From: Emiliania huxleyi CCMP1516
Taxonomy: Eukaryota
Length of the DNA: 64,000 nt
Direction of reading: 5' to 3'
Assembly (NCBI RefSeq): GCF_000372725.1
Contig: NW_005202303.1
Span: 1-64,000 of the forward strand
Part shown: piece by piece, positions 627-64,000 of the stretch
Layout: each line of letters begins with the position of its first letter
Position numbering within the stretch: the first letter of the stretch is position 1
The notes under the pieces: model-generated
The model's database searches: none
Seen by the model: only the letters and a program-made list of their open reading frames with translations
What the model was told of the DNA's origin: nothing
Made by a program: the position numbers and the translations under genes

Positions 627-3600
627 TCACTGGTCGAGCCCGAGCTCCTTGAGCCGCTCCTGCTCGTCGAGGGCGATTAATTAACATCTAATGATTGATT
701 AGTATTTATCTCATTAATCAGTGCTCCTGCTCGTCGAGGGCGATGCACTGCTGGATGATGGGCTCGATCTGGCCGGTGAGCACGCCTGATATTGACATTA
801 TGATCACGGGCGCGTGTCTTTTTTTCTTTTTTTTCGATCTGGCCGGTGAGCACGCCGTCGAGCGCAAAGTTGGATCCGAGCCGGTGGTCGGTGCATCGCG
901 AGTCCTGGGGTTGGGGTGTGGTATGATAAGGCACGGTGGCCTTCTCCACACGCACACGCGCGGTGGTCGGTGTGCAGCGCGGGTCCTTGTAGTTGTATGT
1001 TCGGATCTTCTCGGAGCGAGAGCCCGTGCCGACCTGACATGTATGGTATGCTTATGATAGGATTGGAATGGTATTGCGAGAGCCGGTGCGGGCCTGCATC
1101 TTGCGCTGCGAGGCGACAGCGGCCTGCTGCTCCTCCACCTGCATCTGGTACAGCTTTGCGCGCAGCATCTGCAGCGCCAGCTCCTTGTTTTTGAGCTGCG
1201 ACCGCTCCTGTTCACGGCTGGAGGTGTGAAGAGACGCTGTTCACAGCTCCTTGTTTTTGAGCTGCGACCGCTCCTGCGTCACGCAGGCAGAGAGGAGGAT
1301 ACCCCGAGAGGAGCCCGAGAGGGCAGAGAGGAGCCGAGAGGAGCCGAGAGGAGCCGAGAGGAGCCGAGGGGAGCAGAGAGGAGCCGAGGGGAGCCGAGAG
1401 GAGCCGAGAGGGGGTGGAGAGGAGCCCAGAGGGGGCCGAGATTGTCCGAGATTGTCCGAGATTGTCCGAGTGTCGCTCCTGTGTCACGAAGAGGCGGATG
1501 CCGGTCGGCTTGTGCGTCAGGTCGATCGCCGTCTCGACCTGATTCAAGAGCCCCTTGCCTCATTCATCTCCTCAATCTTTGGCCTCGGGTCGACCGCCGC
1601 GTCGACCTTGTTGACGTTTTGCCCGCCCGCGCCGCCCGAGCGAGCCGCGTGCATCTCGATGTCGCCGGGCTTGATCTCGACGGCAACCTCGTCCACCTGC
1701 GGGGGAGGTGTGGGGGAGGTGTGGGGGAGGTGTGGGGGAGGTGTGGCGGAGATGTGGGGGAGGTGTGGGGGAGGTGTGGGGGAGGTGTGGGGGAGGTGTG
1801 GGGGAGGTGTGGGGGAGATGTGCGGGAGATGTGCGGGAGATGTGCGGGAGGTATGGGGGAGGTATGGGGGAGGTATGGGGGAGGTATGGGGGAGGTGCGG
1901 GGGAGGTATGGGGGAGGTGTGGGGGAAGGTCGAGCTGCTGCGCCTTGCCGCACGCGTCGATCAGGGAGGTGAACGTGTTCACGCCGGGCTGCAGCCCGCG
2001 CCGCACCATCTCGTCGTAGAACTGGAAGGCGCGCGGCAGCTGCTGCGCCTTGCCGCACGCGTCGATGAGGATGTTGTACGAGACCTACAAAGGACAGAGG
2101 CCAAGACAGCGTCGACCAGTGTGAGTTGTACCAGACCTGCGTGAGCTGCACACGCCAGCCTCAGGGCACGCGNNNNNNNNNNNNNNNNNNNNNNNNNNNN
2201 NNNNNNNNNNNNNNNNNNNNNNNNNNNNNNNNNNNNNNNNNNNNNNNNNNNNNNNNNNNNNNNNNNNNNNNNNNNNNNNNNNNNNNNNNNNNNNNNNNNN
2301 NNNNNNNNNNNNNNNNNNNNNNNNNNNNNNNNNNNNNNNNNNNNNNNNNNNNNNNNNNNNNNNNNNNNNNNNNNNNNNNNNNNNNNNNNNNNNNNNNNNN
2401 NNNNNNNNNNNNNNNNNATCTCCCAGATCTCGCCGCCGAGGTGTGCACGCGCCCCTGCGTCTCTGTCGCGCCCAAAAACTGCCACGGTGGACGCCCGCCT
2501 GGGGACGAGATCCGGGAGATATGGCGAGATATGGCGAGATATGGCGCTGCACACGGTGGACGGAGTGGGTGGGGGGGAGGGATAGGGTGGAGGGTGAGGG
2601 TGAGGGGGTGGGGGTGGGGGTGGGGGTGAGGGGTGAGGGAGAGGGAGAGGGAGAGGGTGGAGGGTGGAGGGTGGAGGGTGGAGGGTGGAGGGTGGAGGGT
2701 GGAGGGTGGAGGGTGGAGGGTGAGGGTCAGCGCAACCGGCTCGACCTTGAGCTCGACGGACCCGCCCGTGATCTCGGGTAATCTCGGGTGATCTCAGCTG
2801 ATCTCGGCTAGTCTCGGGTAATGTCAGCTGATCTCGGCTAATCTCGGGTGATCTCGGCTGATCTCGCCTCGAACTTGAGCTTCGAGTAGACCGACTCGCC
2901 CTTGATCTCGAGCGTCGCGTCGCGCACACCGCCTGGTGGGAGATACAGCCGAGATACAGCCGAGATACAGCCGAGATTGTGCCGAGATTCAGCCGCCTGG
3001 TGGGAGATTTGGCCCAGATCCAGCCGAGATCTAGCCGAGATTTAGCCGAGATTAGCCGCATCTCCCCCCATCTCCCCACACGTCCGCCCACGTCCCCCCA
3101 TCTCCCCCCATCTCCCCCCATCTCGAGGCCGCCTGCGTCGGAGTCGGAGGCAGACACGACTCGAGACTGCCAGCCTAACGGCGACATGTCCGGGACATGT
3201 CCGCAGCCATGCCCCTCTCAGAGGAAGGCGCGCCTCGAGAGGTGACCGCCCTGCGACTGGGCGTAGCGCGAGTAGAGCGAGAGCAGGTCGTTCGCCCAAA
3301 TCGCGGCCTACCGCACCACCCACCGACCCTGAACCCACACAGGATTCGATACGTTGGAGGTATGGGACCCGAGCGGCGGCCTCGTCGCCGCCGGTGCCCG
3401 CACGGATCTCAAACATCACGTTCTTGTCGTCGTTTGGGTCTGCGGCGGAGAGAGGTGTGGGGAGATATGGGGAGATGTGAGAGGAGAGCATGAGCATCGA
3501 TACTAGTGAGCAGAGGAGAGGGAGGTGAGAGGAGAGGAGAGGAGAAGGAGAAGGAATTAGTGGGCGCTACTGCAAAGAGAGGAGAGGGTAGGAGGAGGAC

Positions 3601-4257: not shown

Positions 4258-4957
4258 TGTGAGGTTGATGACTGCACTCCAAGTGCTCCAAGTGCAAGAT
4301 GCTCCAAGTGCTAACGATCGCCATACAGACATGGGTGCGAAACAACGACAAGACCAAGGCACGGGCAGAGGAGAGAGAGAAGAATATAGGGCGGATAAAT
4401 AAAGCGCCTGTTCACGGCATGGAGGGTGAGCCACGCTGAACGTAGAGCCGAACGGGAGGAAGCCGGGGAAGAAGACTCCGAGGAGGACGAAACACCAGTG
4501 GTACAGTCTGTTGCGGGCATTAAGAAAACAGGATCTCGCTATAGGGTGCCCACAGGGCCCAAAAAAAGAAAGACATCGGATGTGTCTTGTGAGCCTGTTT
4601 GTGTCTGTGTGTCGCTCGTGCGTGTCGTCATCATCTGTCTAGTGTCCACCCATACCGCGTTGGTGTCCAGTCCGAGCCTGGCTGTTCTTCACCTTTCTAC
4701 CTACCTACCTGGATGTGAGGTTGATGACTGCACTCCAAGTGCTCCAAGTGCAAGATGCTCCAAGTGCTAACGATCGCCATACAGACATGGGTGCGAAAAA
4801 CAACGACAAGACCAAGGCACGGGCAGAGGAGAGAGAGAAGAATATAGGGTGGATAAAGCGCCTGTTCACGGCATGGAGGGTGAGCCACGCTGAACGTAGA
4901 GCCAAACGGGAGGAAGCCGGGGAAGAAGACTCCGAGGAGGACGAAACACCAGTGGTA
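4258..4957 (+). repeat. ~245-bp direct repeat pair (4258-4503, 4714-4957) separated by a MITE end and a retroelement-tail repeat
   Basis: TGTGAGGTTGATGACTGCACTCCAAG...GAAACACCAGTGGTA occurs twice almost identically. Confidence 0.9.
4580..4710 (+). mobile_element. Dispersed repeat, probably the 3' end of a non-LTR retroelement/SINE; other copies at ~11510-11745(-), ~21812-22030(-), ~44160-44290(+)
   Basis: Shared GTGTCTTGTGAG...CCCATACCGCG...GGTGTCCAGTCC...GGCTG core; three copies end in (CCTA)n/(CATA)n tails; variable 5' extent. Confidence 0.7.
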
Positions 4958-7963: not shown

Positions 7964-9738
7964 ATGCAGCAGGTCCTTCGGCAGATACAGGAGGCGGTCG
8001 AGCCGGTGCTGGAGCGCAGCCTGACGAAGCGCCGGCGCCAGGAGTTCCTCGCCTCGGCCGGCCCCCTCTTCCTCTGCCTCACCTTCATCGAGGATGCGCT
8101 GCGCGTGCTGCTGCGCTGGAAGGAGCAGATGAGCTACATGACCGTCACGATGCGCATGCGCGCGCCGCCCCCACCCAGCGAGCCGCAGCGGATTTCGCTC
8201 GGACCGCGCGCCTCACACGCGCCGCTCGCCGCCGCCGCGCAGGAGCGGCTGGCTGGGTGGACTCCTGCTCATCTTTTCGCTCGTGACGCAGGCGCCGGCA
8301 CTGCGGCGCCCGGCCGCGCAGCCAAAGAGAGAGAGAGACGCGAGACGCGAGCGCGTGCAGCGGGTGGAGCGGGCCGCCGCCGCCGCTGGCGCGCCTTCAG
8401 CCTGCTCTCGCGGGAGTCGCGGACGCCGGACACTCGCAGGCAGTCGCGCGGGTCTGCAGCCGCGGCGCTCACCCTTGATTTGGTACCCGCTCTCGCGGCC
8501 CGCACCAAGACACAGCCGCTTTACCGGCGCCGCCGCCGCCGTCCGCAGATGACGGGGAGCGTTTTGGTGCTGCGTCCAAAGGAGGTCAAGCCCAGCCGCG
8601 TGAAGGTTGGCTGCTACACACTGCTCGCCTTCGTCTTCCTGCAGCCCTTCATGTACGGCCAGGCGAGATCAGCCGAGATCAGCCGAGATCAGCCGAGATC
8701 AGCCGAGATCAGCCCTTCATGTACGGCCAGGCGCGCGACGCTAGGAAGCGGAATACGGACTCTTGTATCCCAACCAGCGCCCGAGAGGACACGCATTCAG
8801 CCGTATTCACGCGGTGCTCTGAACCCGCTGCACAATCCCGTCTCCCCGCCCTGAGGCGTGCTCAGCTTCTAGGCGCGCGACGCAGACTTCATGTGCCGCA
8901 GTGTGACACTAGCGGGCGGGCTGCTGCTGCTCATCTGGTCCGAAAACGACCGCAAGCAGCGCAGCGAGGACATGGGCTTGCCGTCCGGTGCCCGCGCCCG
9001 CCCCTGCCGCGCCCGCCCCTCCCACGCCACCGCCACTCTCGACGCCGCAGCGCGTGCCCCGCACCGCGCCCCCCCACTCCGCCCCCCCACTCCGCCGCCC
9101 CACACGGCCAGGCATGGAGTCGACGAGCTCGGACCGGCTGCAGCTCTGCGGGTTAGCGCTGCCGTCCGGCCGCCTCCTCTTTGCGCCGCCTTTTCTCCCC
9201 AGCCCGGCCGGAGCCGTCATAGGCGCGTCCTGCTGACCTTCGGCCCGCGTGTTTCTTTTTTTGACGCGTATTTCTTTTTCTAGCGTAGGCGCGTCCTGCT
9301 GACGTTCCTCTTCTTCTTCCAGGCCGTGTACTCTGAGAATGGCGGAATGCACCGCCTCTGGACGGCGCCGTCTCTCTTCGGGCTCATCAGCTTCGTGGTG
9401 CTCGCGGGCCTGGCGGGTGCGAGACGCCCCCGAGACACTTCCGAGACACCTAGATCACACCTCCGAGTCAGAGACGTTTCTGCCGACGCGTCCACGGCAC
9501 GTCCGCAGGGATGGTCTGCGCGGGCTTCAAGACGGAGTGGTCGGCGCTGCTGCTATGCGGCATCCTCTTCCTGTCCAACCTCTACATGTACCCCTTCTGG
9601 TCCATCCGCGAGGGCCTGAGGGACTTTTACCGCTACTACTTTTTCCAGACCCTCTCCATCATCGGCGGGCTAATGCTGCTCGCGCTGCACGGCCCGGGCG
9701 GGATCAGCTTGGACAAGGGGATGAAGAAGGCCATCTGA
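7964..9738 (+). CDS. SURF4: SURF4/Erv29 family ER cargo receptor, multi-exon
   Basis: FLCLTFIEDALR..W, FMCRSVTLAGGLLLL, GFKTEWSA, YFFQTLSIIGGLMLLALHGPGGISLDKGMKKAI with a KKxx retrieval motif. Confidence 0.9.
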
Positions 9739-11291: not shown

Positions 11292-11775
11292 ATTCCGGAT
11301 GGGCGAGCGTCGACACGAGCGATTTCTTTTCTCAAATTCCTGTGATGAACGTGTGTTGTTGGAAAATCAAGAGGTCCGTTCAGTTATACGCCGTTCAGTT
11401 ACCACGTGAAGTCATGGCGGCCGGTATTGCACGGAGCTCCGTGAGCGGCGGCGGGCTCAAACGAGCGAATGGGCGGCTGCTCCCCACAGACAGGAGTTGC
11501 ATACATAAGGTATGTATGTATGTATGTAGGAAGGTGAAGAACAGCCAGGCTCGGACTGGACACCAACGCGGTATGGGTGGACGCTGGACAGATGATGACG
11601 GCACGCACGAGCGACACACAGACACAAATAGGCTCACAAGACACACAGCCAGCGGGCTGCCAGCCTGCCACACACCCTGAGTAGGCGTACACATAACTCA
11701 AGGCCACATCCTCCTTGTCGCCCCCCCCAGCACTCCAAGCACCATCGCCGCACGGTCGCGCCGCCGCCACTCGGC

Positions 11776-15604: not shown

Positions 15605-16159
15605 TTTCGGGCCTGTGTCGGTGGAGACTTGTTCACACCGGTATGCCTTGCTCCTTTAGGTGCTCTTAATACGTTCTGATTCTTGTGCTGATACTTGCGT
15701 CCGAGACTGCTTGTGTTAGCCCTGTGGGTTTTCTTTTGCCCTCGGTGTCCTGTCTCGGTGCGCCTGCCTTGGTTGGACCAGCCGCCTGCCTCCCCATGTG
15801 GTGATTGTTGTTCATAACGATATCCCTACAACCACGATCGATGCGAGGACGCAAGCCCACACCAAACTCGGCCATTCCAACGGCCAGACCGCTCGCTTAA
15901 GGCTGATTGGCTAGACGAGCGGTCTACCCCCGACGGGGCGGCCTGGATCAACGGGGGATGACATGTTGACATCCTGCCTCCCGGCACGCCGGGAGGAGGT
16001 GGGTGCTCCGCCGCCGGACCCCCCCCTCCATCACCCTCGCCCAGGGATCTACAATGCTGTCTTAAGGGGTCCGACCTGTGGGCTCTGCCTGCGCTCGGCA
16101 CCGGGCACCGCCTCGGTATACAAAATGCGCCTGCGGGCGGACCCTTACAGATCACAGAT

Positions 16160-17318
16160 CACTGGATAGGGTCGATTCCGTATGGTACGGGACCCCTCGA
16201 TCGTCTCGCCCTCCCTCACTGCACACTGGTGTGTTCATTGGGGGGGGTCATAACAAACACGGTACAGGATCGAGGTGCACGCTGCAGGAGCAGTGTCGTC
16301 CCCCCTCTCCCCAACGGCGATGGCGGTGTGACCGATCGAGCTACAAGAAAGAAGAGCTTGTTCTGCAGGATCCGGGATAGTCTGACGCACTACTTTCTAC
16401 CTCGTGCCACGTCACCCTCCCCGCTGCTCGCTTGCCCGCTCTGCCCAGCCGACCGACGCCCCGCCATCCGTTGCCGTTATGCCGCCGCTCCTTACTGTCC
16501 GCCGTGCCGTCGTTCTTTACCATACCGCGCCGCCTTCCCATACTTCCTGCTTCGCGACGGGGTTTGTGTTGAGGAGTGACCCGTGCCGCCGTGTGCCCCG
16601 CAGCGGCCTCGCTGGGCCAGAAAGTCGGCCCCGAGTGCCAGCAGCAGCCTCGTTGAGCCAGAACGTCGGCTCGCGAGGTGGGTGCTAGTATGAGCCCGCT
16701 GAGGCGTAGTGCTCTTGCAGAGGCGGTTAGTGGTGCACTAACCCCGAGAAACCCTTCGGGTCACTCCTCATCGCAAACCCTGTCAGCAGTCCTCCTCCGG
16801 GAATGTACGTAAGAGCCACGTCGAGACGGACTTCTTGAACAGCCGGGCAACATGTCTTCCTTACTATTATTAATTGATGCTTTTTGCACGGCTGAGCCCC
16901 CCCCCCCCCCTCCCCCGCGCCCACTCCCTGCCCTCTCCCGCCACGCACTCCGTCAGAGCCCCCTCCCCTCTTGCACAACAGGAATTTTGACAATTAACAA
17001 GGTTGAATGGTGGGCTTGCCCACCCCGGAGTGGTTCGATCCCACATGAATCCGAGACGGTGACGGGATGCTGGCTCTGTGGTCTCAGGCCCAGTGAGGTA
17101 GTGCACGAGACTATCCCGGATCCTGCTGAACAAGCTCCTCTTGTAGCTCGATCGGTCACACCGCCATCGCCGTCGGGGAGAGAGGGGACGACACTGCTTC
17201 GGCAGCGTGCACCTCGATCCTGTACCGTGTTTGTTATGACCCCCCCCAATGAACACCAGTGAGGGAGGGCGAGACGATCGAGGGGTCCCGTACCATGCGG
17301 AATCGACCCTATCCGGTG
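16160..17318. mobile_element. Element with ~230-bp terminal inverted repeats (16160-16393 / 17098-17318); a solo end also occurs at ~51405-51460
   Basis: CACTGGATAGGGTCGATTCCG...GGATAGTCT is the reverse complement of AGACTATCCCGG...CGGAATCGACCCTATCCGGTG; no coding capacity or clear TSD. Confidence 0.8.
16390..16821 (+). repeat. ~430-bp segment duplicated at ~18756-19200, containing a highly structured ~225-nt core
   Basis: Near-identical direct repeat with a 28-bp terminal stem and several internal hairpins. Confidence 0.9.
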
Positions 17319-17419
17319 CTCAAGTGCTCAAGTGCTCAAGAGCCACGTACATTGAGAGAGAAAAAAACAGCTTTCCCTTCCGTCTGCGCGCACGTCCCAC
17401 TTCGCGTCTTCGGACGCAT

Positions 17420-18172
17420 ATGCAGGCGCATCATGTGCATGTTTGCTTGGTCGTTCTGGTGCTATTGGCGGGAACTGGGCTCTACTATCTGGCCAACTCC
17501 ATCGACAGGATTGTGGCCAGCTTGATCGAAAAAAGTGGAACATATGCTCTGGGGACGACGGTTCGCGTATCGGATGTTCGCATATCGCTCAAGGAAGCCA
17601 AAGGCTCGATTTCCGGTCTGACCGTGGCGAATCCGAGCGGCTTCAGCGGTGAGGCAATCTCATTTCAGGATATTGTGATCAGGATTGACCCGGCATCAAT
17701 CTTGTCGCGGGAGCCGATCGTGATCACCGAGGTGACGGTGCGGTCTCCGTCGGTCAATCTGGTGCTGGGCGCAAATGGATCGACAAATATCCAGGCGCTT
17801 CTAGCAGATGATTCGGGGTCTTCGAGCAAGCCTTCGCCGTCGACGGATACCTCCGGTGGCTCCTCTTCTCGATTGCGGATCAACCGACTTGAGATCGCCG
17901 ACACCAGTCTTGCGGCGGATCTCTCGGCTGTTGGCGGCAAGAACTTCAGCACCACAATCCCTGCCTTGCGGCAGTCCAATGTCGGCGGTGGGAGCGGCGC
18001 TGCACCGTATGCGCTCGCGACCACGATTGCCAAGGTTTATGTGTCGAAGGTGGGGGAGTCGGTAGCTCTTGCCGAGGCCGAGAAGCAAGTGAACAAACTC
18101 GTCGACAAGCATTTGGGCGGCGACGCCGGAAAGGCGGCCAAGGGACTATTGGGCAATATTCTCGGACAGTAA
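17420..18172 (+). CDS. AsmA-like/DUF748-like protein of bacterial type, intronless (250 aa)
   Basis: N-terminal TM helix, then IEKSGTYALGTTVRVSDVRISL..GSISGLTVANPSGFS..IDPASIL..IVITEVTV..TNIQAL; lower GC3 than flanking genes. Confidence 0.75.
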   Translation: MQAHHVHVCLVVLVLLAGTGLYYLANSIDRIVASLIEKSGTYALGTTVRVSDVRISLKEAKGSISGLTVANPSGFSGEAISFQDIVIRIDPASILSREPIVITEVTVRSPSVNLVLGANGSTNIQALLADDSGSSSKPSPSTDTSGGSSSRLRINRLEIADTSLAADLSAVGGKNFSTTIPALRQSNVGGGSGAAPYALATTIAKVYVSKVGESVALAEAEKQVNKLVDKHLGGDAGKAAKGLLGNILGQ

Positions 18173-18394
18173 AATGGCCGCGGCAGGCGGAGCGGCTCTG
18201 GTTCGATTAAAGTTGTCGAGAAGAGGATTCTGTTTTGCCAGCTGGGGCCTTTGCAGACGATGACATTTGCGGGAGCCCGAGGCGAGCGTGAGGCTCTGCG
18301 CCGCTCATACCCTCGCGTATTCCTCTCGCGCGTCGAACGCACTCATCAACAAGCGAATGTGTGTATGTCTGGGTGTGGAGTCGCGAATCTAGGT

Positions 18395-19563: not shown

Positions 19564-19667
19564 ACATTGAAAAGGGAGAGGGGGTTGTGTTCTCTAGGAC
19601 GTACGCATAGCACAAACCGCCGGAACTCAAACCAAACTCGTGCGTTCTTCTCTGTGTGGTAGTCCAA

Positions 19668-23032: not shown

Positions 23033-24741
23033 CTCCTCCTCCTTTCTTTCCTCTCTCCTCTCTCCTCTCTCCTCTCTCCTCCCTCTCACCGCCCCTCGCC
23101 ACGCCTCTCAGGGCCGCGGCACCCGCAGCGCCGATCGACCCTACGCGCGTGGCGAGGGCACTTGCGGACTTGGCCGGCGACGAGCGCAAGCAGCGCGAGC
23201 TGCTGCAGGAGGCGAAGAACGCGCTCCGCTCTACGCCCAAGGGGCAAGGAGACTCTAGAAGCGGAAAGCGTGGACGCCTCTTCCAACTAGCGCGGGGGGG
23301 CACGGGGATTCGGCTGCATCCCGCCGTCTTCTGCCGTCTTCCGCGGTACTCGCTGCATCCGTAGCCCGTGTATTCACGCGCTGCTCTGAAGGCACGGCGC
23401 AATACCGTCCCTCCCGCCCCCCCTGACCTCGGCGTGGCTCATGAAACAGCCTCGGGGCATTCCAGTCTCCTATCTGCCCGCGGGCCGACCCTCACAATCT
23501 CACAGCTCACAACGGGCGCGTCTCTCTTCATTCACCACGATTGGCCCCCCTGCACACTACCGCGTGGGTGGTGTTCAGTTCGCACTCCAACAGCCCTCAT
23601 AACAGGCTCGAGACGCCAAAGTACCGCGTGCTCCGCTCGTGGCGGGCGGGGCCGGGCGCCCTCGACGGCGTTGTCGAGCTGAGAAGCTACCCGCCCTTCA
23701 CCGTCGCGCGCAAGGGCATGGGCGGTGCGGGCTTCGGCGCCGTCGAGACCCCCTACCCCCACGGTACCCGCACCCATCCCGTACCCCCACGGTACCCGGA
23801 CTCAGGTGCGGGCTTCGGCGCCGTCGAGGGCGGCGGCGCGGGCTTCAACGCGCTCGCTTCATACCTCTTTGGGGACAACGCGGGCGTCGCTAGAAGCGGA
23901 ACACCTCCCCATATCTCATCACATCTCCCCGTATCTCCCCATATCTCGGCGAGTCTCACACGGCACACGAGACCGTGCCCCACAGGCCCTCACGGTGGCT
24001 GCTCTTGCTGCAGGCGGACGGCGCTGCGATGGCGATGACGACGCCGGTTGGGATCGACGTGTCCGGCGGAGGCGCCGCGAGCTCGATGAGCTTCGTGCTC
24101 CCGAGGGACGCGGCGCGGGCGCCCCCGCGGCCGAACGCCGACGGCGGCGTCGCGCTCGACGAGGTGCCCGCGCGGATCGTCGCCGTCAAGGCGTTCGCCG
24201 GCGTCGTCACCGACGGCGAGGTGCGGCGGCAGCGCGATGCCCTCGAGGCGGCCATCGAGGCGGACGGAGGCACGGCGCCCGTCGAGACCCCCTACCCCCG
24301 CGGCACCCGCACCCATCCCCTAACCACACGGTACCCGAACCCAGGCACGGCGCCCGTCGAGGCGGGAGCCTTTTCGGTGCTGCAGCCTAGTTGCAACTGC
24401 GCATTCTTGTGTTCCAAGTAGCACTCGAGAGGTTCACTGTCTTCGCAGCCCCTCGTACTCACGCGGTGCTCTGAACACACTTCACAAGACCGCCTTCCCG
24501 CCCTGATGTCGGCGTACTCGCCACGTAGGTGCTGCAGTACAATGCGCCGTACGCCATCCCGTGGCGGCGGCGCAACGAGCTGGCGATCGTGGTGAGCGAG
24601 GTGGTGGCAGAGGAGGAGGCGGCGTCAGCAGGCGAGGCGGCGGCGGGCGACGCCGAGGTTGCGCCAGCAGACGAGGCTGCGGGCGAGAGAGAGGGGCGAG
24701 AGGGCGTCTCATCGTGGTACGACACGGGGGTGCGGCTCTGA
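22471..24741 (+). CDS. SOUL heme-binding protein, probably plastid-targeted, multi-exon
   Basis: LETPKYRVL, ELRSYPPFTVA, GFNALASYLFGDN, MAMTTPV, MSFVLP, LQYNAPYAIPWRRRNE; signal peptide followed by an AYSP motif. Confidence 0.9.
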
Positions 24742-40609: not shown

Positions 40610-43600
40610 CTACACGTCCAAGATCTGCACCCCTGCCGCGCCCCTGCCGCCGGAGCCCACCAGCTGGCCCGTCCGCACCTCGTTTGGCGAGTCTGAAGAC
40701 TGGCGGCGGCCGCCGCCCTGCCGCCGTCTCCGACAAGCGCGGGGAAAGAGCGCGGTGGAGGCCGCCACGAAGGCAGCCCCCACCAAGAAGCCTAGCCCCG
40801 CTGCTGAGGCGCGCCCGCCCACGTCGTACTCGAGTGAGAAACGCTCGCCCGGCTGCGGCGGCGGCAGCCGCGGCGGCGGCGGCGGCGGCGGCGGGTGGGC
40901 GGCGGGAGGCACAGCGGGGTCGCAAGCTCCCTCTGCCGGCTGGCTGCAGCTGCGATCGGCGCTGCGCACGAGCCAAGCGCCTAAAGAGCTAAGTACTGGA
41001 CCTAAAAAAGAAATACAGCCTTCCGCGTTGCGGACGAGCCAGGCGCCGTCGGTGTCGGCGAGGCGGGTGGCCGAGTTGTCCTCTCCGTAGTGCGTGCGCG
41101 TGAAGCAGTGGCGGTGGTCCCAATCGACGTGGCCCTCCGCCGCGTCGAGCGAGGCGCACGCGGCGCGCGTCCAGTTGAAGCGCGCCTAGAGACAGACACA
41201 TCGCGCGCTGTGTTTCTTCTTTGAGGGGGGGGGGCTGCCGCCAGAAGCGCGCCTAGAAATAGAATTTTACAACGAAGCTCCCTCTCACGACACTGGGCAC
41301 GGGACTGGCGCTAGAAAGAGAAACATTCAGGCAGCAGGGATGATGGGCTATACCTCGGCTATATCTCGGGCTCTATCTCGGCTATATCTCGCGTGCGTCT
41401 CGTTGACGAGGGTGAGGAGGCCGACCCCGAAGGAGGACTCGCGGAAGGCGGACCTAGAAAGCGACGTCGCCCCGGTTGTATTTCTTTTTCAGCCGACCCC
41501 GAAGGAGGACTCGCGGGAGGGGCGGGCCAGGCTGGCTGCGGCTCGCGCCACGGCACGTACGCGCTCTCCCGGTTGCCGCCGTCGCCGAGGTTGAGGTAGA
41601 CGGGGCCGCACCTACAAAAACAAAGATGGGCCCGCCGCGCTTCTCTTTCAGCCGTTACCCGAGGTTGAGGCACACGGGGCGCGCACGGGTGGGAGCAGCC
41701 GTCGTAGACGGGACGCGAGCGCTCGTAGGCGTGCACGTGCCTAGCAATAATCCAACTAGAACAGATTAAGATTTAACAAGAACTCATGGAGCGGCTCGTA
41801 GGCGTGGAGGTGCCTGATTGTTCACAACGAAACAATGCACGACTAGCAGCCATCGATGAGTGATGACTAAGCCCTCGCCGCACTGTTCCCCGAAAAGGAC
41901 GACGGCTAGTGCTAGTCCGACCCGTTGGGAGGACGACCCCGGCCAGTCCGCACCACCCCCCACAAACCGCCCCTCGCAAAGACCGCATATGGGGGGGCGG
42001 GGGACTGCTCCTGTGTACCCATCTCCTGGCGTCTCTGTTCTTCCGTAAGGTTGTTTGCCCCGAGAGGACGAGGTCGACGCCCGCCTCGAAGAGGAGCGGC
42101 TCCATGTCCCTGCGCATCAGCTCCGCCTCGCCCGCGTGCCCTACACCCAAGGACTGCCTGTGAAGCCATCGGAGCGGCCCCTGCTAGCTCCGCCCCGCGT
42201 CGCGCGGGCCTACAACCCATCGCCACGCGTGACTCGCAGCTCGTGCACTAGTCGCAGCCCCGCGTCGCGTGGCCCGAGTTGGAGTTGTACCTGAGTTGGA
42301 GTTGTACCACGGCGCGTGCATCATCACGACCAACCACGGCGTGGCGGCGCGGTCGACCGCCGCCAAGTCGCGCACCAGCCATGCGTGCTGGAGCGAGCCC
42401 GCCTGCACGGTCAGTGGACTGTGAACCGCTGATGACTAGTGGACTAAGGCTGGAGTTAGCCCGCCTCTGTCGCGGCGTACGACGACAGCGAGATGAGGTG
42501 CAGCGGCCCGACGGCGCGCGACCACCACAAGTTGCTCGGCGAGCCGGACGACCTAACGATGAATGATGCGTCATTCGCAACTAACACCACACACAAGTTT
42601 CGGCGAGCCCGGGCGACCTAATGACTGATGGTGACTGATTCATCATTCGTCAGCAAAACCAGCACACGTCGAGCCGGACCCGGACCGGTACGGCATCGGG
42701 TAGCGCGTGTTGTACGAGACCCACGCCTCGGCCGTCCCAACCTGAAGTACCAACGAGGAACGAGTAGCTGCTGCTGCCCCTCTACGAGACCACGCCCCGG
42801 CCGCCCCAGCCTGTTTATTGATGATGACTCATCATTGACTGCTCTTGCCGCTGTACGAGACCCACGCCCCGGCCGCCCCAGCCTCGTGGTTCCCGCCGCA
42901 GCTCATCACGGGCACCGTCGCGGCGAGGGGCTGCATCAGCCTGGCGTAGCTGTCCCACCGCGAGTAGAAGCCTATCGGAAAAGAAACACGTCGTCGAAAA
43001 AAGAAACACGCCGCGCGTCCCACCGCGAGGAGTAGCCGTCGGCGTACGAGAGGTCGGCTGTATCTCGGCTGTATCTCGGCTGTATCTGGGCTGTATCTCG
43101 GCTGTATCTGGGCTGTATCTGGGCTGTATCTCGGCGACATCTCTGCTAGGCTCTGCCGTCGGCGTACGAGAGGTCGCCCGCAAGGAGGACGAGTGATCCG
43201 CTCCCTTGCAGCCTGACTCACTAGGGCTCAGTAAGTACTTGGAGGAGGACGAGGGGAGGCCGGCCCGTCGCAGCCTCGTCCGCAGCAGCTCCGCGTTGGC
43301 TAGCGACACCTCCGTCTGGCCTACCGTAGAAGAAGAAGCACGCCGTCCAAAAAAGAAACACGACGGGGGGCCAGCGACACCTCCGTGCTGGCCGAGGTCG
43401 GCGGTGAGGCCGATTGTCCACGGGTAGACCGAGCTGCCGCCGCCAGAAGCCGCTGCCTTGCCGTCGCCGGAAGCGTCGCCGCCATCGCCGCCACCGCCAT
43501 CGCCGCCACCGCCGCCACCGCCGCCGCCGCCGCCGCCGCCTCCCTCTGCCGATGCTGCGGAGCCCGGCGGGTACGTGAATGCGAAGGTTGCGCTTGACCC

Positions 43601-47751: not shown

Positions 47752-50700
47752 TCAGCTGCTCTGGACCGCATTGGAGCCGGCGGCTGCCTGTGAGAGCGCC
47801 ATGTCGTCGAGCTCCTCCATGAGCGCCTCGATGTTGGCGTAGCCCTGCTCCTCGAGCGAGCTCGCCGACGTCGTGCTCTCGCCGTCGCCGCGCACCTCTC
47901 TCTGCGCGGCGTGCAGGCTGCGCAGGCCGGCGGCCGCCTCGTCCTGAAGATAGTGAAGACATCAAGGCGACTCAGGGTGCGAGAGTATCCACATCGGGGT
48001 GCACCTCTCGGCTGTGTCTCTCGGCGGTGTCTCTCGGCGGTGTCGCGGCTAAGTCGCGGCTATGTCGCGGCGGTGTCTCGGGCATGTCTCGGCGGTGTCT
48101 CGGCGGTGTCTCGGCGGTCTCTCGCCTCGTCCTCTCCGAAGCACTCAGCGAGGGCCGTGTCGCCACTCATCACGTGCACGCGCGGCCGGTCGCCGTCCAC
48201 CTAACCACACCTCACGCTGTGAAGAGACGCCGTTCACAGCTCACGCCGCCGCGCGGACCGGCCGTCGCCCACCCACAACCGCTTCACGCGCCGGATGCGG
48301 CACCCGCCCGCCTATGAACAGAAATCCGCGCGTGAAAAAGAAATACGACGACAAACAAATATGGCGCGCGTCGCGCCAGCTCGAGGGCACGGCCGCCGGG
48401 CCAGCTGCCTGCAGCCATGGACACGATCGGGGTGAACCGGGGATGTGCTTTTGCTTGAATACCCTCTCGTGCCGTGCATGGGGTGTAGCATCGCATCAGA
48501 TGTATTTAGGTAGCATCGCATGAGAGGTAGCATCGCATCAGATGTGGCATCGCCACAAGGGGATGCAACTGCAGCGAGTACAGCGGAGTACAGCCGACCA
48601 CAGCTGAATGCGTGTCCTCTCGAGCGCTGGTTCGAACGCGTATTCCGCTTCTAGGCCCAGCCGCCGGCGACGAACGCCGCGGGCGCGCCGTCGATGAGTG
48701 TGTCGCTGAGCAGCGCGCGCGAGTTTTCGGCGAGGAGTAGCGCGGCCTAGTCAGAGCAACTCATCAGAGTATGAGGATTCAACTGGTGAGAGGTGTCTCG
48801 GGAGGAGTAGCGCGGCCTAAGAACGATGAGTCATCATACTATTAGAATGATAACTGGTGAGAGGTGTCTCGGCGATAGCGCGGCCTAAAAGAAGAGGCAT
48901 CACAATTGAGAATGATATAACTGGTGAGAGGTGCTCGGCGGTAGCGCGGCCTCAGAGCAGTGCGACAGCGTGCAAGCCGTGCAACGTAGCCGCGCCTGGG
49001 AGATATGGGGAGATCTGGGGAGATTGCAAGCCGTGCAACGTAGCCGCGCCTGGAGATATGGGGAGATCTGGGGAGATAGCCGTGCAACGTAGCCGCGCCT
49101 GGGTGGGTCAGTCAGTGTGACACACTCCCAGCACGGAGGATGGGGCACATACACACTCGCGAGCACACGGGGGCATTGCACACGAGGCGGTGTGTGCGTT
49201 CTCAGGGAGAGGCAGCACCACGCAGACATACGTGCAATCTTCAGAGGGGCAGCGGTGGGGAACTCGCGCGCCTTGTTCCGCAGCCCCCTCCCCTACCCCA
49301 CAGGACCCGAACCCACCCTCCCCTACCAGCCGAACCCACCCGCGGCGCCTTGTTCCGCAGTACCAACGCGTAGCACGCCTGCAGTGTGGACACGCAAACC
49401 TCAGGGCGGGAGGAGGCCGTCTGTCTCTCCCTTCTCGACTGTCTGTGCTTGTGCGTCTTGGGCCCCGGGGTTGTGTTTTTGCGTGAATTCGAAGGCAACG
49501 CGGTCCTCTCTCGAATGCTGATCAGAATGCAACTCTCGTCTCCAGTTTCTCTCGGGTCGCAGGCCGTCTTTCGGATGCCGGCCTCCTGCACCGACCTGCG
49601 AAGGAACCGGGAAGGGGGAGCGAGGACTGCGTCGGGAGGGGGGCCAGTCGTACTACGCGATGGAGGGGAGCCAATGCGCTACTCTTAAGTGGTTGGAGAC
49701 TCCTCGGAGGCAGCCGCGACAGCTCAGAGTGTCGGCTGTCTTCTGGAGGGGAGCCAATGCGCTACTCTGAAGTGGCAGCCGCTTATGGAGGAGGGCCAGC
49801 TGAACTACTCGAGAAGGAGCGTCTGTGTTGGGGCCAGGATGCGAGGAAGGCTGTTCAAGGGCTCGTGCGTACCCGTAGGCCGAGAGCACCACCACGCTCG
49901 TGCCCATCTCCTGTTGAAAACAATACGCGCTGCAGATGCGTGCTGCCTGCTCCGCGTGTTTCTTTTGCGGCTGACTCCTGCTCGCTCTCGCCGCCGAGCG
50001 TGCACCGCTCCAGCGTCACCTGCAGTGCAAAAGTGATATGCATGCATCGGGCGGTTGGGGCACGCACGCGCAGCACACTCAGGCGAGGGACTTCAGCACA
50101 CTGCAACACACTCAAGGCGAGGGACTTCAGCACACTCCACGCCGTGGGGCTAGCACGCACGCATGGAGCAGGTGTGGGGCAAAGACGGCCGAAATATGCA
50201 CCTGCGCGCCGCCGCTCAGCCGCAGAGCGCAGCCGTGCGAGCAGCGCAGCCTAAAAGAAGCCGCGCCGTCAAAAACAGAGACGGATCTCTTCGAGCGCAC
50301 CCGTCAGAGCAGCGGAGCCGGAGCCGCGCCAGCAGCCACTGGCCTCCCACGCACCGCAGGCAGTCGCCGCCTAAGGACATGTCTCGGACATATCGTGGAC
50401 AACACCTGGACCTGTCACCTCTACAGGCAGCTGCCGCCGGCGTCGTCGAAGCGCACGCCGTGGATGGAGCCGCCGCCGGCGCCGAGCACGAGCGTGCCTC
50501 GAACGACCGCGCCCACCTCGCCTCGGATGGCGAGCGGCAGAGCGCTCAGCGGCTGCAGCGCGGCGCCGCAGTCGATGTGGTGCTCGCCCCGGCGCAGCAG
50601 GATGCGCTGCCCCGGCGCGGCACGCGCGATGGCTACGGCCAGCGAGGGCGCGTCGTCCGGCACGATCAGCTCTATGAAGCGCATGATGCAGCGGAGGAGA

Positions 50701-52006: not shown

Positions 52007-55000
52007 CTAGTCGTAGACGTCAAAGCAGACCTGTCGCCTCTTCTTGGGCGCGTCGTAGTCCTTGACCACCGCCGCTGCCAGCGCGCCGCCGCCGTCTTCG
52101 CCCCCTGCCGCGGCGTTGGCCTGCTCCAGCGCACGCTTGCGCGCCTCGCTCTGCTGGTTGAGGCAGGCGGGGTTGAACATGATGTAGCGCGCGCTGCCGT
52201 ACGAGAAGTCGTCGTCGGACTCGGTGCCTAAGACAAAAGAAAGCGGACTGCCCGGTGTGTGTCGCGTTCGTGAGCAGCCGTCGTCGGACTGTTGTGCAAT
52301 CGGTGTTCGGCGTGCCCGCCATCCCGCAGCCGCAGTAGCCGTCATTGCCCTTGTCGTGCTCGAAGCCGCGGCCGCACTCGCACTTCTTGGAGACCGCCTC
52401 GGCGCACGCCTGAGAGGTGGCGGAGAGGTGGGCAAGGGGTGGCAGAGAGGTGGGCAAGGGGTGGCGGAGAGGGTGGCGGAGAGGTGGCGGAGAGGTGGCC
52501 TCGATCCCAAGCCGAGACGGGGTGGTGGTGGGGTGGGGGGAGATGTGGCCGAGATCGCGCCTCGAGCGTCATCCCGTTCCCGAGGTGCAGCCGGTGAATG
52601 TCGCCCGCGCCGCCCGCGTTGCTGAAGCAGGAGCTGTCCTCGGCGACCTAAGGCAAGGCAAGCTCCACTTCCTTCTCCACACACACGAGGTGGTGAGGCA
52701 AAAGGCCAGGGCAGACCCTCGCGACTCCACATCTAAAGTCAGGAGCCCCACGGCAGTCAGGCGCCAAACCCAATGTGCGTGGGGAGAGCGGAACCCAACC
52801 CCTCCCGGCTAGGCGTGCGCACCAGCTTATAGCTCAGCCCGCCCGACGGCTTGGGCGCCTCCGCCTCGAGCTTCTTGAAGAGCTCCTGGGCCGGCGTCGC
52901 CTAGGAACCGGTGTGCGCGCCGCTTCAGACAGGAGCTACACCCGTCACGGACGCCAAGGCTGCTGAGCGGGCCACAAGTCTCCCAAAGCAGGCGTGGGGT
53001 GCTAGCACTACGGGTGTGTCGAGGCAAAGGCGCACAGCAGACCACTAGAGGCGGCTACACAATCGCGTGGGCGTCGCCTTTGTCGCCCGGTGGCTCGCCG
53101 TCCAGCCTTCCATGTGCCTAGATTAGCCGAGACGAGCCGAGATGAGCCGAGAGTAAAACCAGCCTTCCATGTGCCGAGATGAGCCGAGATGAGCCGAGAT
53201 GAGCCGAGATGAGCCGAGATTACGTCCAGCCCTCCACGTGCCTGCGCGTGCCGTCGAGCGTCTCCTTGCACCGCTGCATCGCTTGGTCCGCCTGCGCCTC
53301 CACCAGCATCGCGCCCTTTCCCGGAAACTTCCAAAAGACGCCGGACTCGACGAGGCGCGAGAGCGCGGCGCCGTGGAACCTTTGCATTGGGGCCGAGGAG
53401 TCGCGACCAGTGGAGGAGGAGTGTGTCGGCCGGCGGGAGTCCGGTGGTGGTGCCACTTCGTCATCTTGTCAACCTGAGCCCCTCTGCTCTGCTCTTCTCT
53501 ACTCTTCTCTTCCGTTCTCTTCTCTTCTCTCTACACCCTGCAGTGTGCAATACACTGCGAGCAAAAGACACTGAGGAGGGAGCGGAGGGAGGGACGCGCC
53601 CCTTCATCATCTCGTCGAGATGTGGGGAGATGTGGGGAGATGTGGGGAGATGTGGGGAGACGCACCCCTTCATCATCTTGTCGACGGCCGCCACCGCCTA
53701 CTCAATCGCGATCTCGCGCGATCTCGCGCGATCTCGGATGATCTCGTTGCCGACGGCGGCCGCCACCTCGTCGCGCAGCTTCGCGTTGTCTGCCGACTCC
53801 TCGCGGTACCAGTAAAACTTGGTGCGCAGCTCTTCGTTGAGGGTGGCGCACCTGTTCACAGCTGCAGGTGTGAAGAGACGCTGCTCACACCATCGTGCAG
53901 CTCCTGGTTGAGGGAGGAGCAGCTGCGAGGGGAGAGGAGGCCGACAGGAGGGCGGGGAGGCGGGTGTTGTGCAGCAGGTTGTGCAGAGTACTCGGAGCAC
54001 CGCGTGAGTACGAGGGGAGGCGGAGACAGTGAGTACAGCTGAATACGGTCGAGTACAGCGGAGTGCGTGTCCTCTCGAGCGCGAGTTGGGGTACACGAGT
54101 CCGTATCCCGCTTCTAGGGAGGCGCACTGCTCGTCGAACCACTTGCGGTTGCGCTCGCGCAGGCGGTTGAGGGTCTCGGCCTCGTCGGCCGTGTCGAGCT
54201 CGAGGTCGGAGCGGTCGAGGATGTATCCGTGCTTCAGCCAGAGGGAGACCTGCTCTCGGGAGGGGTGGGGAGGTTTGTGGAGGTGTGGGGAGGGGTGGGG
54301 AGGGGTGGTGAGGGGTGGGGAGGGGTGGGGAGGGGTGGGGAGGGGTGGGGAGGGGTGGGTAGAGGTGGGGAGAGGTGGGGAGAGGTGGGGAGAGATGGGG
54401 AAGGTGTGGGGAGGTGTGGGGAGAGATGGGGAGATCAGGGAGATCTAGGGAGATCTGGGGAGGCCTGCGCGACAAAGTCGGTGCCGACGAGCGGCTGCGG
54501 CGTGCACTCGGAGAGGGTGAGCACTGTCCCCGCCTAGTACCATACCCGCCAGAGTCTCGAACCCAGTGTGGGTTCGGTCCCGTGGCTGTAGGGTGAGCAC
54601 GGCCCCCCGCCTCCTTGCAGCGGTGCACCGCCTTGAGGTCGTGCATCGCCGCCGCACGCACCTGCGCGGGTTCGGGTTCCGGGGTGGGTTGGGGATCCCA
54701 GCCCCCCCCCCCGAGAGATCTGGGGAGATTGCAGCGGGAGAGATGGGCACTGTCAGAGTCGACGAGAGGGTCTACGAGAGGGCATGAGACGGGAGTGGCG
54801 GCGCGCTCGGCGCCCCGGCTCTCCCCTGCAGAAGGGGGGGGAGAGGCAAGAGAGCCCCGGCGTTCGAGTGGACCTGGTCGGCGTCGTGCAGGGCCCAGGC
54901 ACTTCCCAGGCACTTCCCAGGCACTTCCCAGGCACTTCCCAGGCACTACCTAGGCACCACCTAGACACCACCTGGTCGGCGTCGTGCAGGTAGTCCGCCG

Positions 55001-59014: not shown

Positions 59015-61046
59015 CTAGAGCCGCAAGTTCTGCGGCCGCAAGCGCAGCTGCTTCCCGCCGTCCAGCAGCGCGAGGTAGCGGCCGCTCGACTCCTCAAACT
59101 CGAGCACCCGCGCGACGAGCCCGTTGTACTGCGCGGCGCCCTGCAGCCCGTCGACGATGCCGTGGGCGCCGTCCGCAAGCCGCACGTTGGCGTACCCCAC
59201 CGGCAGGCTCTGCCCGCTCGCCAGCTCGACGCCGTACATCTCCGCCTCTGCGTTCCGCTCGAAGATGGTCCCAGTGGCGCCCTCGTGCTCTGCCATCGAC
59301 GCCGCGAGGCCGACGAGCCTCACCTGGAAGAAGAAACCAGGATCGATCTGTGTTTCTTGTCTACAGGCCTCCCATCTCGAGATCCCCCGAGATCCCCCGA
59401 GACTCCCCGAGATCCCCCGAGACTCCCCGAGATTCCCCGAGATTCCCCGAGATTCCCCGAGATGGCCCGAGATGGCCGACGAGCCTCACCTCGGCCATCT
59501 GAAGCAAGTTGGCGAGCTTGAGCGCGAGCGCGCCGCCCTCGCGCAGCTTGACCGTGTACCGCCCGCTCCCCTCGTCCACCCCCTCCACCACACCCACCGC
59601 GCCATTCTTCTCCGGCTTGCTCACCAGCCCGACCAGCTTGACGTACGTGTGGCGCGGCAGCCGCACCCGCGCCGCCGCCGCCGCCGCCTCCGCCGCCGCC
59701 GCCTCGCCCGCCGCCAGCGCCTCGGCCGCCGCCTCCGCCGCCACCCGCTCCTTCTCCGCCTCGGCCGCCGCCGCCACCGCCGCCGCCTCCCGCTCCTGCT
59801 CCGCGCGCCGCTCCGCGACGACGGCGCCGAGCCGGACAGAGCGCTCGATGTCGACGTCGTCCGGCATCACGCGCTTGCGGTGCCCGTCGTAGAGGCTCGC
59901 CTCTAGCTGGCGCTCGTCGTAGTAGCGCCCGCTCATGCTGTCGACGCACGCTGCCGCCGCCGAGGAGGCCTCGAAGCGCAGGACGACCGGGCACGCGGCG
60001 TCGGCGGCGAAGCACTGCACGCGCTCGATGCGGCCGTGGCGCGCGCACTCGAGCCACGCCTCTTCTTCGATCCCTCGGATCATCTCTTTCGCGTCGGTCG
60101 ACGTGGAGAGCTGCTCCTGCGTGACCATGCCGCAGTAGGGTTAGGGTTAGGGTTAGGGTTAGGGTTAGGGTTAGGGTTAGGTTAGGGTTAGGGTTAGCTG
60201 CTCCTGCGTGAACATGCCGCAGACGACGGCGATCCGGCCCCAGTCCGACTCGGCCACCTTCGGCTTGTCGTCGAACGTGGCCGGCGCGACCGAGAGGTGC
60301 TCGCCGAAGAGCGCCCACTCGCGGCCCGGCTCGAGGGCCGCCTATTCACAGCTGCACTATCCATAGCTGCACTGTTCACAACCCCACCCGCGGCCCGGCT
60401 CGAGGGCCGCCTTGACCGCCCCGCCCGAGGCAAACGTCACGATGCCGTCGCCCTTGTTCTCGCCGCGGCCGTCCTTGTACAGCTTGACGCGCTTCACCTC
60501 GCCCGCCTTTGGAAGGGGAGGCGGGAGGCGGCGGGTGCGAGGCGTGACGGGCGAGGAGGAGAGGCGAGATGCGCGCAGCGGAGGCGAGGGAGGGAGCGGC
60601 ACGCGCAGGCGGGCGATGCCGGCGAGCTCTCGCGCCTTGGAGAAGAGGTTTTGCACCGCCGTGTGCGACACCTCGGTCGGGATGCCGCACACGTACACCG
60701 ACCAGTTGGCCGCGTTGGCCGCCTGATTCGCCGCCTTCTCCTTACGCTTCTCCGTCTTACGCGCCAGCTTGCGCGCCCGCGCCGCCTCCGCCTCGGACGG
60801 GCCGACCTCCGACTTTTGCGCGTCGAAAACCTGCAGGTAGAGGAGCCTTCTCGGTCAGAGCGCGCTCGCGGTTGGTGGTCGCGACCGCCGCTCGCACACC
60901 GAGTCCCAAGCCGACTCGACATCATCGTGCGCCTCGCCGTGCACTGACGCTTCGTGCAAGCTGCGCTTGCGCGCGGCGTCGAGCCGCGCCTGCTCGCGGG
61001 CCATCGCCGCCTGGTACGCACTCGGGCCGCCATCGGAGCGCGACAT
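59015..61046 (-). CDS. Tat-SF1/CUS2-like splicing factor (RRM + UHM) with C-terminal SH3-like repeats
   Basis: YVCGIP..LFSKAGEVKRVKLYKD..KGDGIVTF; ECARHGRIERV..VVLRF..MSGRYYDERQL; repeated VxLxGLxxxxxxNG..GRYxVxL..LxLxxxNL. Confidence 0.75.
60136..60197. repeat. Interstitial telomeric (TTAGGG)~10 array forming an intron interior
   Basis: Directly visible. Confidence 0.95.

Positions 61047-61643: not shown

Positions 61644-64000
<2,357 letters not shown>

What the first reader, a model, noticed from the sequence alone, without database searches (positions are those of the whole stretch)
657..1277. Introns are systematically bracketed by 10-30-bp duplications of exon sequence that supply the GC/GT donor
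Seen: repeats flank many introns. RF1: 657-677/724-744, 764-786/835-857, 1179-1210/1246-1276. SURF4: AGGCGCGCGACGC 8729-8741/8871-8883. SOUL: GGTGCTGCAG 24376-24385/24528-24537. Also GBP ~54872/54971, Tat-SF1 ~60110/60197 and ~60320/60390, and PARP AGGCCTTCGA either side of the (CA)n intron. The first copy gives the donor and splicing restores one copy, leaving the protein unchanged. Known: introner transposons in Micromonas and Aureococcus co-opt short TSDs for splice sites. Inference: long, variable duplications with heterogeneous fillers suggest a different ongoing intron-gain route (staggered-break repair or TPRT), which could also explain the excess of GC donors.
Basis: partly seen in the sequence, partly recalled or inferred. 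Interest (0 to 1): 0.8.

Follow-up and report, generated by a model that had tools for sequence, protein, structure and literature searches.

The report
Long duplications mint new algal introns
In this coccolithophore-type alga most short (60-81 base) introns that could be checked consist of a 10-40 base copy of the neighbouring exon plus a filler, which likely marks introns being created at staggered DNA breaks inside genes and would explain the alga's many unusual GC and GA splice donors.

Summary
All nine named repeats exist (coordinates off by 1-2) and each allows an in-register G[C/T/A]..AG excision; three use GA donors, and in three the duplication also gives the acceptor. Spliced RNA or protein confirms that one copy remains. 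In an unbiased set, 10 of 13 short introns but 1 of 12 long introns are bracketed by such a duplication, so 'systematically' holds for short introns only. Not an assembly artefact. Best reading: intron gain by templated repair of staggered breaks in exons, filtered by splicing. Gain itself (intron-free alleles or relatives) was not shown; overwriting of older introns remains open. Emiliania introner families are already catalogued, without long duplications.

The parts
660..726 (-). RF1 intron, 67 nt, GA..AG; both splice sites inside a 22-nt duplication (18 nt upstream of the junction, 4 downstream); AT-rich filler
   Evidence: spliced homolog P0002 holds one copy
786..855 (-). RF1 intron, 70 nt, GC..AG; 22-nt copy of the next exon start, then filler carrying the acceptor
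905..985 (-). RF1 intron, 81 nt, GA..AG; decayed ~25-nt duplication
   Evidence: two database proteins read through it (P0004, P0035)
1034..1093 (-). RF1 intron, 60 nt, GC..AG; 18-nt duplication with 3 mismatches
1208..1478 (-). RF1 compound intron, 271 nt, GA..AG; its last 66 nt (1208-1273) are a unit of ~28-30-nt exon copy plus the 38-nt filler family E (1208-1245); upstream part is 10-nt tandem repeats
1539..1606 (-). RF1 intron, 68 nt, GT..AG; decayed duplication
3175..3249 (-). RF1 intron, 75 nt, GC..AG; decayed duplication
8663..8730 (+). SURF4-like gene, predicted 68-nt intron; 24-nt duplication around a 10-nt tandem filler whose period runs 5 nt into the second copy
   Evidence: splicing inferred
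8731..8872 (+). SURF4-like gene, predicted 142-nt intron of the fixed-10-nt-duplication introner family (element starts at 8741)
   Evidence: splicing inferred
24377..24528 (+). SOUL-like gene, predicted 152-nt intron of the fixed-10-nt-duplication family
   Evidence: splicing inferred
41177..43386 (-). Purple acid phosphatase gene, run of duplication-bracketed 64-74-nt units and nested units
   Evidence: spanned by DNA contigs of runs X2 and X4
48201..48272 (-). RNA-verified 72-nt GT..AG intron: decayed ~32-nt duplication plus family E
48746..48949 (-). Three head-to-tail 66-70-nt intron-like units, each starting with the next exon's first bases and ending in TAG
   Evidence: splicing not seen
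50251..50318 (-). RNA-verified 68-nt GC..AG intron, 26-nt duplication with mismatches
52228..52297 (-). RNA-verified 70-nt GC..AG intron with decayed duplication
54874..54971 (-). GBP gene, predicted 98-nt GT..AG intron; both sites in a 21-nt duplication; 11-nt tandem filler
   Evidence: splicing inferred
60117..60203 (-).
   Evidence: splicing inferred
60342..60410 (-). Same gene, predicted 69-nt GC..AG intron; 30-nt duplication plus an E-like filler
   Evidence: splicing inferred
63550..63879 (+). PARP gene, predicted 330-nt GC..AG intron; 10-nt duplication, (CA)n and a repeat family ending at the acceptor
   Evidence: splicing inferred

Best explanation
Most short introns checked here are a copy of 10-40 nt of the adjoining exon plus a filler, and they likely arise when a staggered break inside a transcribed exon is repaired with filler DNA copied between the two overhangs. 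Shown: the duplication-filler-duplication build, its splicing to one copy, the donor (GC, GT or GA) taken from the upstream copy, the acceptor taken from the filler or from an AG inside the duplication, total length clustered at 65-79 nt, recurrent filler families, copying of whole units between unrelated genes, tandem arrays. Inferred: two nicks up to ~40 nt apart leave 3' overhangs; one end is extended on an available template (the 3' part of another intron, a short template reused in 10-11-nt steps, or telomerase RNA) by a reverse transcriptase or end-joining polymerase; the ends join by 2-5 nt of microhomology and fill-in duplicates the target; only products that start with G[CTA], end in AG and reach about 60-65 nt are spliced and survive. 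A separate family with a fixed 10-nt duplication is a conventional introner working alongside.
For: Splice-agnostic scan of 299 kb (window plus 120 loci): 88 of 154 repeat pairs lie 65-74 nt apart; 67 of 108 pairs at 60-84 nt allow an exact in-register G[CTA]..YAG excision versus 21% of controls, 80 of 108 versus 34% allowing 8 nt slack. In 17 of those 67 the duplication extends >=5 nt upstream of the junction as well, as expected of one continuous target. Family E: 107 of 113 usable copies are followed by G[CTA] (none GG), 83 of 113 have the exon start repeated 21-40 nt upstream (control 1.4%), 74 of 83 give 65-74-nt introns; upstream sequence continues the reading frame in 50 of 64. Matched length 10-36 nt; 24 of 64 have an unmatched tail >=8 nt, 17 not explained by an indel. 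One family occurs with duplications from ~6 to 41 nt and a 5' end shortened accordingly (read by eye). Filler periodicity runs >=3 nt into a duplicated copy in 10 of 27 periodic fillers versus ~5% (6 of 33 rows dropped by eye as tandem arrays). Telomeric filler at 60136-60195. Repair of 3'-overhang breaks mainly yields tandem duplications in mouse cells (PMC5730883, section 14); staggered-break repair was proposed for Daphnia gains (PMC3443670 passages).
Against: No intron-free allele or relative was seen; DNA runs X2 and X4 carry the introns they span, so gain is inferred. The process is nearly confined to genes (23 of 25 pairs in 62% of the window, p 8e-4, my rough gene spans) and to sense orientation, which random break repair does not explain. 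The narrow total length needs a steep mutational fall-off or a ruler, since introns of 124-353 nt are spliced well. E is exactly 38 nt in 100 of 113 copies, more like a defined element (although the search pattern selected full-length copies). No CpG enrichment in duplicated targets (0.133 versus 0.146 and 0.152, n 62). No enzyme was identified.
Confidence: 0.5

Rival explanations
1. Each filler family is a dedicated non-autonomous mobile element (introner); E is a 38-40-nt element whose integrase or non-LTR reverse transcriptase cuts with a 25-36-nt stagger, so the duplication is a true but unusually long target-site duplication. This is almost surely right for the fixed-10-nt family.
For: E has a fixed core length, near-palindromic 10-nt terminal repeats, an invertible middle, about 520 stored stretches estimated in the metagenome collection; fixed 3' ends at the acceptor with variable 5' ends in two other families resemble target-primed reverse transcription; fixed 10-11-nt duplication in 11 of 15 copies of the long family; Emiliania introner families of unknown mechanism are listed in supplements of PMC9860276 and PMC12130899.
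Against: Unique AT-rich, tandem-repeat and telomeric fillers show the same geometry and the same total length; duplication length varies 10-36 nt within E with foreign tails; no transposase or RT found next to any copy examined (13 window ORFs; loci not scanned); E copies fold no better than shuffles.
Confidence: 0.26
2. The introns are older; their 5' part is overwritten by repair on the spliced mRNA, cDNA or an intron-free allele (aborted intron loss), and their 3' part is homogenised by gene conversion between introns, which spreads E and whole units.
For: Explains confinement to genes and sense strand, the excess of duplication on the donor side (50 of 67 with <=4 nt upstream), identity falling from 0.94 near the donor to ~0.6 next to E (first 14 nt were selected on), conserved total length, and whole units shared between unrelated genes (L080 to L049/L067, L025 to L017, L035 to L047, L028 to L102).
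Against: Duplications that straddle the junction on both sides of one filler (17 of 67; 60117-60203 with telomeric filler) would need two overwrites; the long family keeps a crisp 10-nt duplication and an intact 5' end in 11 of 15 copies (copies were found by that end).
Confidence: 0.2
3. Plain tandem duplication of ~70 nt of exon around AG|G, with later decay of the middle (Rogers-type), or assembly error.
For: Tandem duplication is an accepted route of intron gain (PMC3443670 passages); tandem arrays of whole units exist.
Against: Fillers are unrelated to the exon while the copies are often perfect, and belong to families shared across genes; DNA contigs of two studies, RNA junctions and a spliced protein support the structures.
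Confidence: 0.04

Closest known systems
Introners (Micromonas, Aureococcus, Symbiodinium, Polarella, Chrysochromulina; PMC9860276, PMC12130899, bioRxiv 10.1101/2020.10.14.339549)
   Same: Repeated intron sequences at unrelated genes; one splice site carried, the other co-opted from a target duplication; GC and GA donors; exon starts with GH. The long family here (10-nt duplication, CT after it) matches the Symbiodinium/Polarella pattern.
   Different: Reported duplications are 3-9 nt and fixed per family; here 10-40 nt and variable, filler often family-less, total length near constant, whole units copied and amplified.
Emiliania huxleyi introner families in Gozashti et al. 2022 and 2025 supplements
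   Same: Same lineage; families of 70 and 37 nt, 82% in genes; one 70-nt family noted with '10bp terminal direct repeats', co-opt 5' carry 3'.
   Different: Listed with TSD unknown, none, 2 or 4 nt and 5-45 members (2025); the method needs similarity to begin within 10 intronic bases of both ends, so introns whose shared part starts 27-36 nt in would be filtered out. Their sequences were not in the supplements I could search, so identity with family E is untested.
[quoted passage not shown]
   Same: Direct repeats flanking new introns, filler inserted at staggered breaks.
   Different: There short repeats flank 43% of gains and fillers are unique or mitochondrial; here repeats reach 40 nt, mark most short introns and fillers recur as families.
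Tandem genomic duplication of AGGT-containing exon sequence
   Same: Both splice sites can come from the duplicated AG|G (660-726, 54874-54971, 60117-60203).
   Different: Most of the intron is foreign filler, not duplicated exon.

Membership tests
Introner (general) | Similar intron sequences at several unrelated genes | tested here: met
   Family E in 113 usable contexts, long family 15 copies, whole units shared
Introner (general) | Precise splicing restoring the mRNA | tested here: met
   RNA junction at E intron 48201-48272 and others; RF1 protein. Long-family copies not RNA-verified
Introner (general) | Similarity extends to both intron ends | tested here: not met
   For E the shared part starts 27-36 nt after the donor; met only for whole-unit copies and nearly (+11) for the long family
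Introner (general) | Insertion at new positions (empty site in alleles or relatives) | tested here: inconclusive
   Two DNA runs carry the introns they span; only 15 of 166 joint rows were shown
TIR DNA-transposon (MITE) introner | Fixed short target-site duplication | tested here: not met
   Short class: 10-36 nt within family E. Met for the long family alone: 10-11 nt in 11 of 15
TIR DNA-transposon (MITE) introner | Terminal inverted repeats | tested here: inconclusive
   E has a near-palindromic 10-nt terminal repeat; long family shows an 8-nt inverted match at 8741/8872 but only CT..AG in other copies (by eye)
TIR DNA-transposon (MITE) introner | Autonomous transposase partner | not testable with these tools
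   No genome held
Non-LTR retrotransposon / SINE (TPRT) | Fixed 3' end, variable 5' truncation, variable duplication | tested here: met
   Two filler families with shared acceptor ends and different 5' extent (few copies, by eye)
Non-LTR retrotransposon / SINE (TPRT) | Partner LINE with matching 3' tail; RNA intermediate; genome-wide insertion | not testable with these tools
   No genome; copies are nearly confined to exons, which argues against a free SINE
Break-repair intron gain | Direct repeats enriched over background | tested here: met
Break-repair intron gain | Junction microhomology and heterogeneous filler | tested here: met
   (10 of 27 versus ~5%)
Break-repair intron gain | Repeats enriched in gained versus conserved introns | not testable with these tools
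   No orthologous genomic loci available

The most novel reading that the evidence does not exclude
The alga runs a splicing-coupled intron factory without a dedicated transposon: the 3' parts of existing introns, whole excised introns, short repeat templates and telomerase RNA are copied into staggered breaks in exons, the overhang supplies the donor, and new introns become templates in turn, so that most of the genome's short introns and its GC/GA donors come from one self-feeding repair route.
Probability: 0.3. Interest if true: 0.9.

Novelty: new variant of a known kind. Interest (0 to 1): 0.74.

Why it matters
How new spliceosomal introns arise is a long-standing question, now mostly credited to transposons with short fixed target duplications. 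Here most short introns of a major bloom-forming alga carry a readable birth scar of another size class, in every stage of decay, so mechanism, age and rate become testable with existing strain genomes. It offers a cause for the GC and GA donors and the 10-11-nt intronic repeats of this lineage, shows a class that the published introner screen would filter out, and explains gene-model errors: the public Emiliania RF1 model P0035 reads through three of these introns.

Tried and rejected
No whole genome is held for this window. Two filler patterns found nothing in viral contigs. No Rfam match in 5 of 120 loci. Five filler copies fold no better than shuffles (z 0.1 to -1.2), so a structured-RNA role is unsupported. 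Idea that breaks fall in CpG-rich methylated linkers (recalled for this lineage): no CpG excess in duplicated targets, and the one literature search for it returned no usable paper. Idea that the GC before E is target microhomology: only 7 of 17 clean cases have it in the exon copy (background 15%), so it is mostly part of the element. No clear drift of the intron copy towards a stronger donor (5-9 mismatches per position in 137). The negative correlation of duplication and filler length (rho -0.79, n 93) is partly built in by the 58-95-nt window and may count both strands of one site, so I rely on the splice-agnostic spacing peak. A first coding model had one training exon out of frame (43 of 64) and was redone (50 of 64). 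No Pfam RT or transposase in 13 window ORFs. Earlier scan findings: none for this genome, two unrelated introner notes.

Full report
Organism and setting. The window is eukaryotic, ~63% GC. An RF1 exon finds a protein named as Emiliania huxleyi at 94% identity and unnamed 361-aa proteins at 93-95%; an intronless gene at 57074-58303 is a close paralog of the channel in PDB 7x5v (that this is the Emiliania channel NaVEh is recalled). I treat it as E. huxleyi or a close relative. No whole genome is held.

Observation. All named repeats exist, with 1-2-nt corrections in RF1. Exact two-copy repeats of >=16 nt at 35-199 nt spacing number 32 in the window and none in 10 local Markov shuffles.

Splicing. 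Contigs of two RNA runs laid on 40500-53600 share 15 displayed junctions (151 further rows were not shown). All resolve to G[CTA]..AG: 10 GC, 4 GT, 1 GA; the donor dinucleotide equals the next exon's first two bases in 14 of 15. An anchored score of intron start against next-exon start averages 5.5 versus 1.2 for mismatched pairs; 5 of 15 score >=8 versus 0 of 210; no permutation of 20,000 reached the observed sum. Protein P0002 matches the RF1 exons exactly with one copy of each duplication and fixes 10 introns outside the N gap. Pooled, 10 of 13 short introns (60-81 nt) and 1 of 12 long ones (124-353 nt) are bracketed by a clear duplication (Fisher p 0.001).

Not an artefact. Contigs of DNA runs X2 and X4 (different studies) span the duplicated sites, for example 41282-41870 with 2 differences and no gap, and 41235-43087 (table 8). 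P0004, a different allele, and the public model P0035 read through intron 905-985.

Fillers. Self-comparison shows recurrent filler families in the window. A scan of metagenome contigs for one, the 38-nt family E (window 1208-1245, minus strand), gave 121 stretches from 15 of 64 parts of the collection, mostly two assemblies; 120 loci (235 kb) reached the script box. Of 136 distinct matches, 18 lacked the acceptor end in that orientation (several are an isomer with the middle inverted, on the other strand) and 5 were cut by contig ends. Of 113 used, 100 are 38 nt, 107 are followed by G[CTA], and 83 have the exon start repeated 21-40 nt upstream (1.4% in mismatched pairs); 74 of 83 give 65-74-nt introns. 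Upstream sequence continues the downstream frame in 50 of 64 non-array cases; phases 35/15/14; matched length 10-36 nt; 24 of 64 have an unmatched tail of >=8 nt, 7 of them explained by indels. The pattern selected full-length E, so its truncation could not be judged.

The build is not tied to E. A splice-agnostic scan of window plus loci found 154 repeat pairs, 88 of them 65-74 nt apart; of 108 at 60-84 nt, 67 permit an exact in-register excision (control 21%) and 80 with 8 nt slack (control 34%); in 17 of the 67 the duplication reaches >=5 nt upstream of the junction. Fillers include 10-11-nt tandem repeats, AT-rich palindromic runs, a family that appears with duplications of ~6 to 41 nt and a correspondingly shortened 5' end, and telomeric repeats. 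In 10 of 27 periodic fillers the period runs >=3 nt into a duplicated copy, against about 5% in controls (I dropped 6 of 33 rows that were tandem arrays). In the window 23 of 25 pairs lie in genes, which cover about 62% by my rough spans.

A second class. A 110-185-nt family starting at 8741, 23255, 23890, 24387, 48654, 54117 and 55249 has its donor exactly 10-11 nt upstream with 8-11 matches to the exon start in 11 of 15 copies.

Mobility of whole units. The same donor-side segment plus E occurs in unrelated genes: L080 (its own exon resembles the segment) and L049/L067 (two assemblies); L025 and L017 (as a dimer); L035 and L047; L028 and L102. Gene identities of these loci were read by eye. 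Head-to-tail arrays occur in loci and at 48746-48949. Copying of excised introns, circle integration or conversion between introns would all fit; chimeric assembly could add to the arrays but the unit must still exist at two sites.

Mechanism. I favour repair of staggered breaks with templated filler (0.5): one continuous target is duplicated around a foreign insert, junctions show microhomology, telomeric repeats serve as filler, and 3'-overhang breaks are known to yield tandem duplications (PMC5730883, abstract and section 14 read). A spliceosome that accepts G[CTA] with little further consensus and a floor near 60-65 nt would filter the products: short fillers survive only with long duplications. 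Weak points are the confinement to exons, the narrow upper length, and no empty site seen. Dedicated elements with a long stagger (0.26) and overwriting of older introns (0.2) remain open.

Literature. PMC9860276 (passages; supplement rows) gives introner duplications of 3-9 nt and lists five E. huxleyi families (653 copies, 82% in genes, lengths 70 and 37, TSD unknown or absent). PMC12130899 (passages; supplement rows) lists three, unclassified or LTR-like, TSD 2, 4 or none, one noted for 10-bp terminal direct repeats. Neither main text names Emiliania. Their screen needs similarity to start within 10 intronic bases of both ends, which would exclude most E introns. bioRxiv 10.1101/2020.10.14.339549 (parts 1-2 of 4 read) reports 3-8-nt duplications with GA/GC donors in dinoflagellates. 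PMC3443670 and PMC11282704 were seen as passages. Ten searches found no paper describing long variable duplications at haptophyte introns; the library lacks most subscription papers, including the Emiliania genome paper and Huff et al. 2016 (both recalled only), and the family sequences were not in the supplements held, so overlap of E with a published family is open.

Verdict. A real, widespread and splice-verified intron architecture; introners in this alga are known, the long variable duplication class appears undescribed. New variant of a known kind, interest 0.74.

Noticed in passing
window 1930-2090 (minus strand), beside the N gap 2173-2417: Inside the RF1 gene lies a stretch that reads like two PPR repeats (motif recalled, not scanned), with RF1 residues 203-211 unplaced; either a mis-join at the gap or a captured exon.
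   Followed up: no
window 4581-4710, 11514-11737, 21812-22029, 44137-44362: A ~220-nt repeat family with a 4-nt tandem tail, retroposon-like; one copy sits in the phosphatase intron 43996-44377, which is bracketed by a 10-nt duplication. An ORF at 21070-21726 just upstream of one copy has no Pfam match.
   Followed up: partly
window 16157-19611: An intronless DUF748/AsmA-like ORF (17240-18172) between repeated flanks (421-nt direct repeat 16406/18782, inverted 16157/17098); looks like a bacterial-type gene held in a mobile element.
   Followed up: partly
window 57074-58303 (minus): Intronless single-domain voltage-gated channel, close paralog of PDB 7x5v, next to genes with an intron every 60-100 nt; intron density is very uneven across the window.
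   Followed up: partly
window 46618-47928 and 50988-51861: Very high summed contig depth in DNA runs (up to ~180,000 versus ~90 for single-copy parts): very abundant intergenic repeats.
   Followed up: no
loci L011, L044, L051, L103, L107: Family E occurs as isomers with the 21-nt middle inverted, and as a fully palindromic form, suggesting template switching on a hairpin.
   Followed up: partly
window 47944-48125: RNA-verified intron where an 11-nt repeat at spacing 188 is spliced as 182 nt, leaving two extra codons in frame.
   Followed up: no
window 34353, 44981, 56699, 57015: A short T/C-rich family just upstream of gene starts, one copy between 13-nt direct repeats.
   Followed up: no
L045 1798-1863: Contig ends in telomeric CCCTAA repeats directly after coding-like sequence; may be another telomeric filler or a chromosome end.
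   Followed up: no
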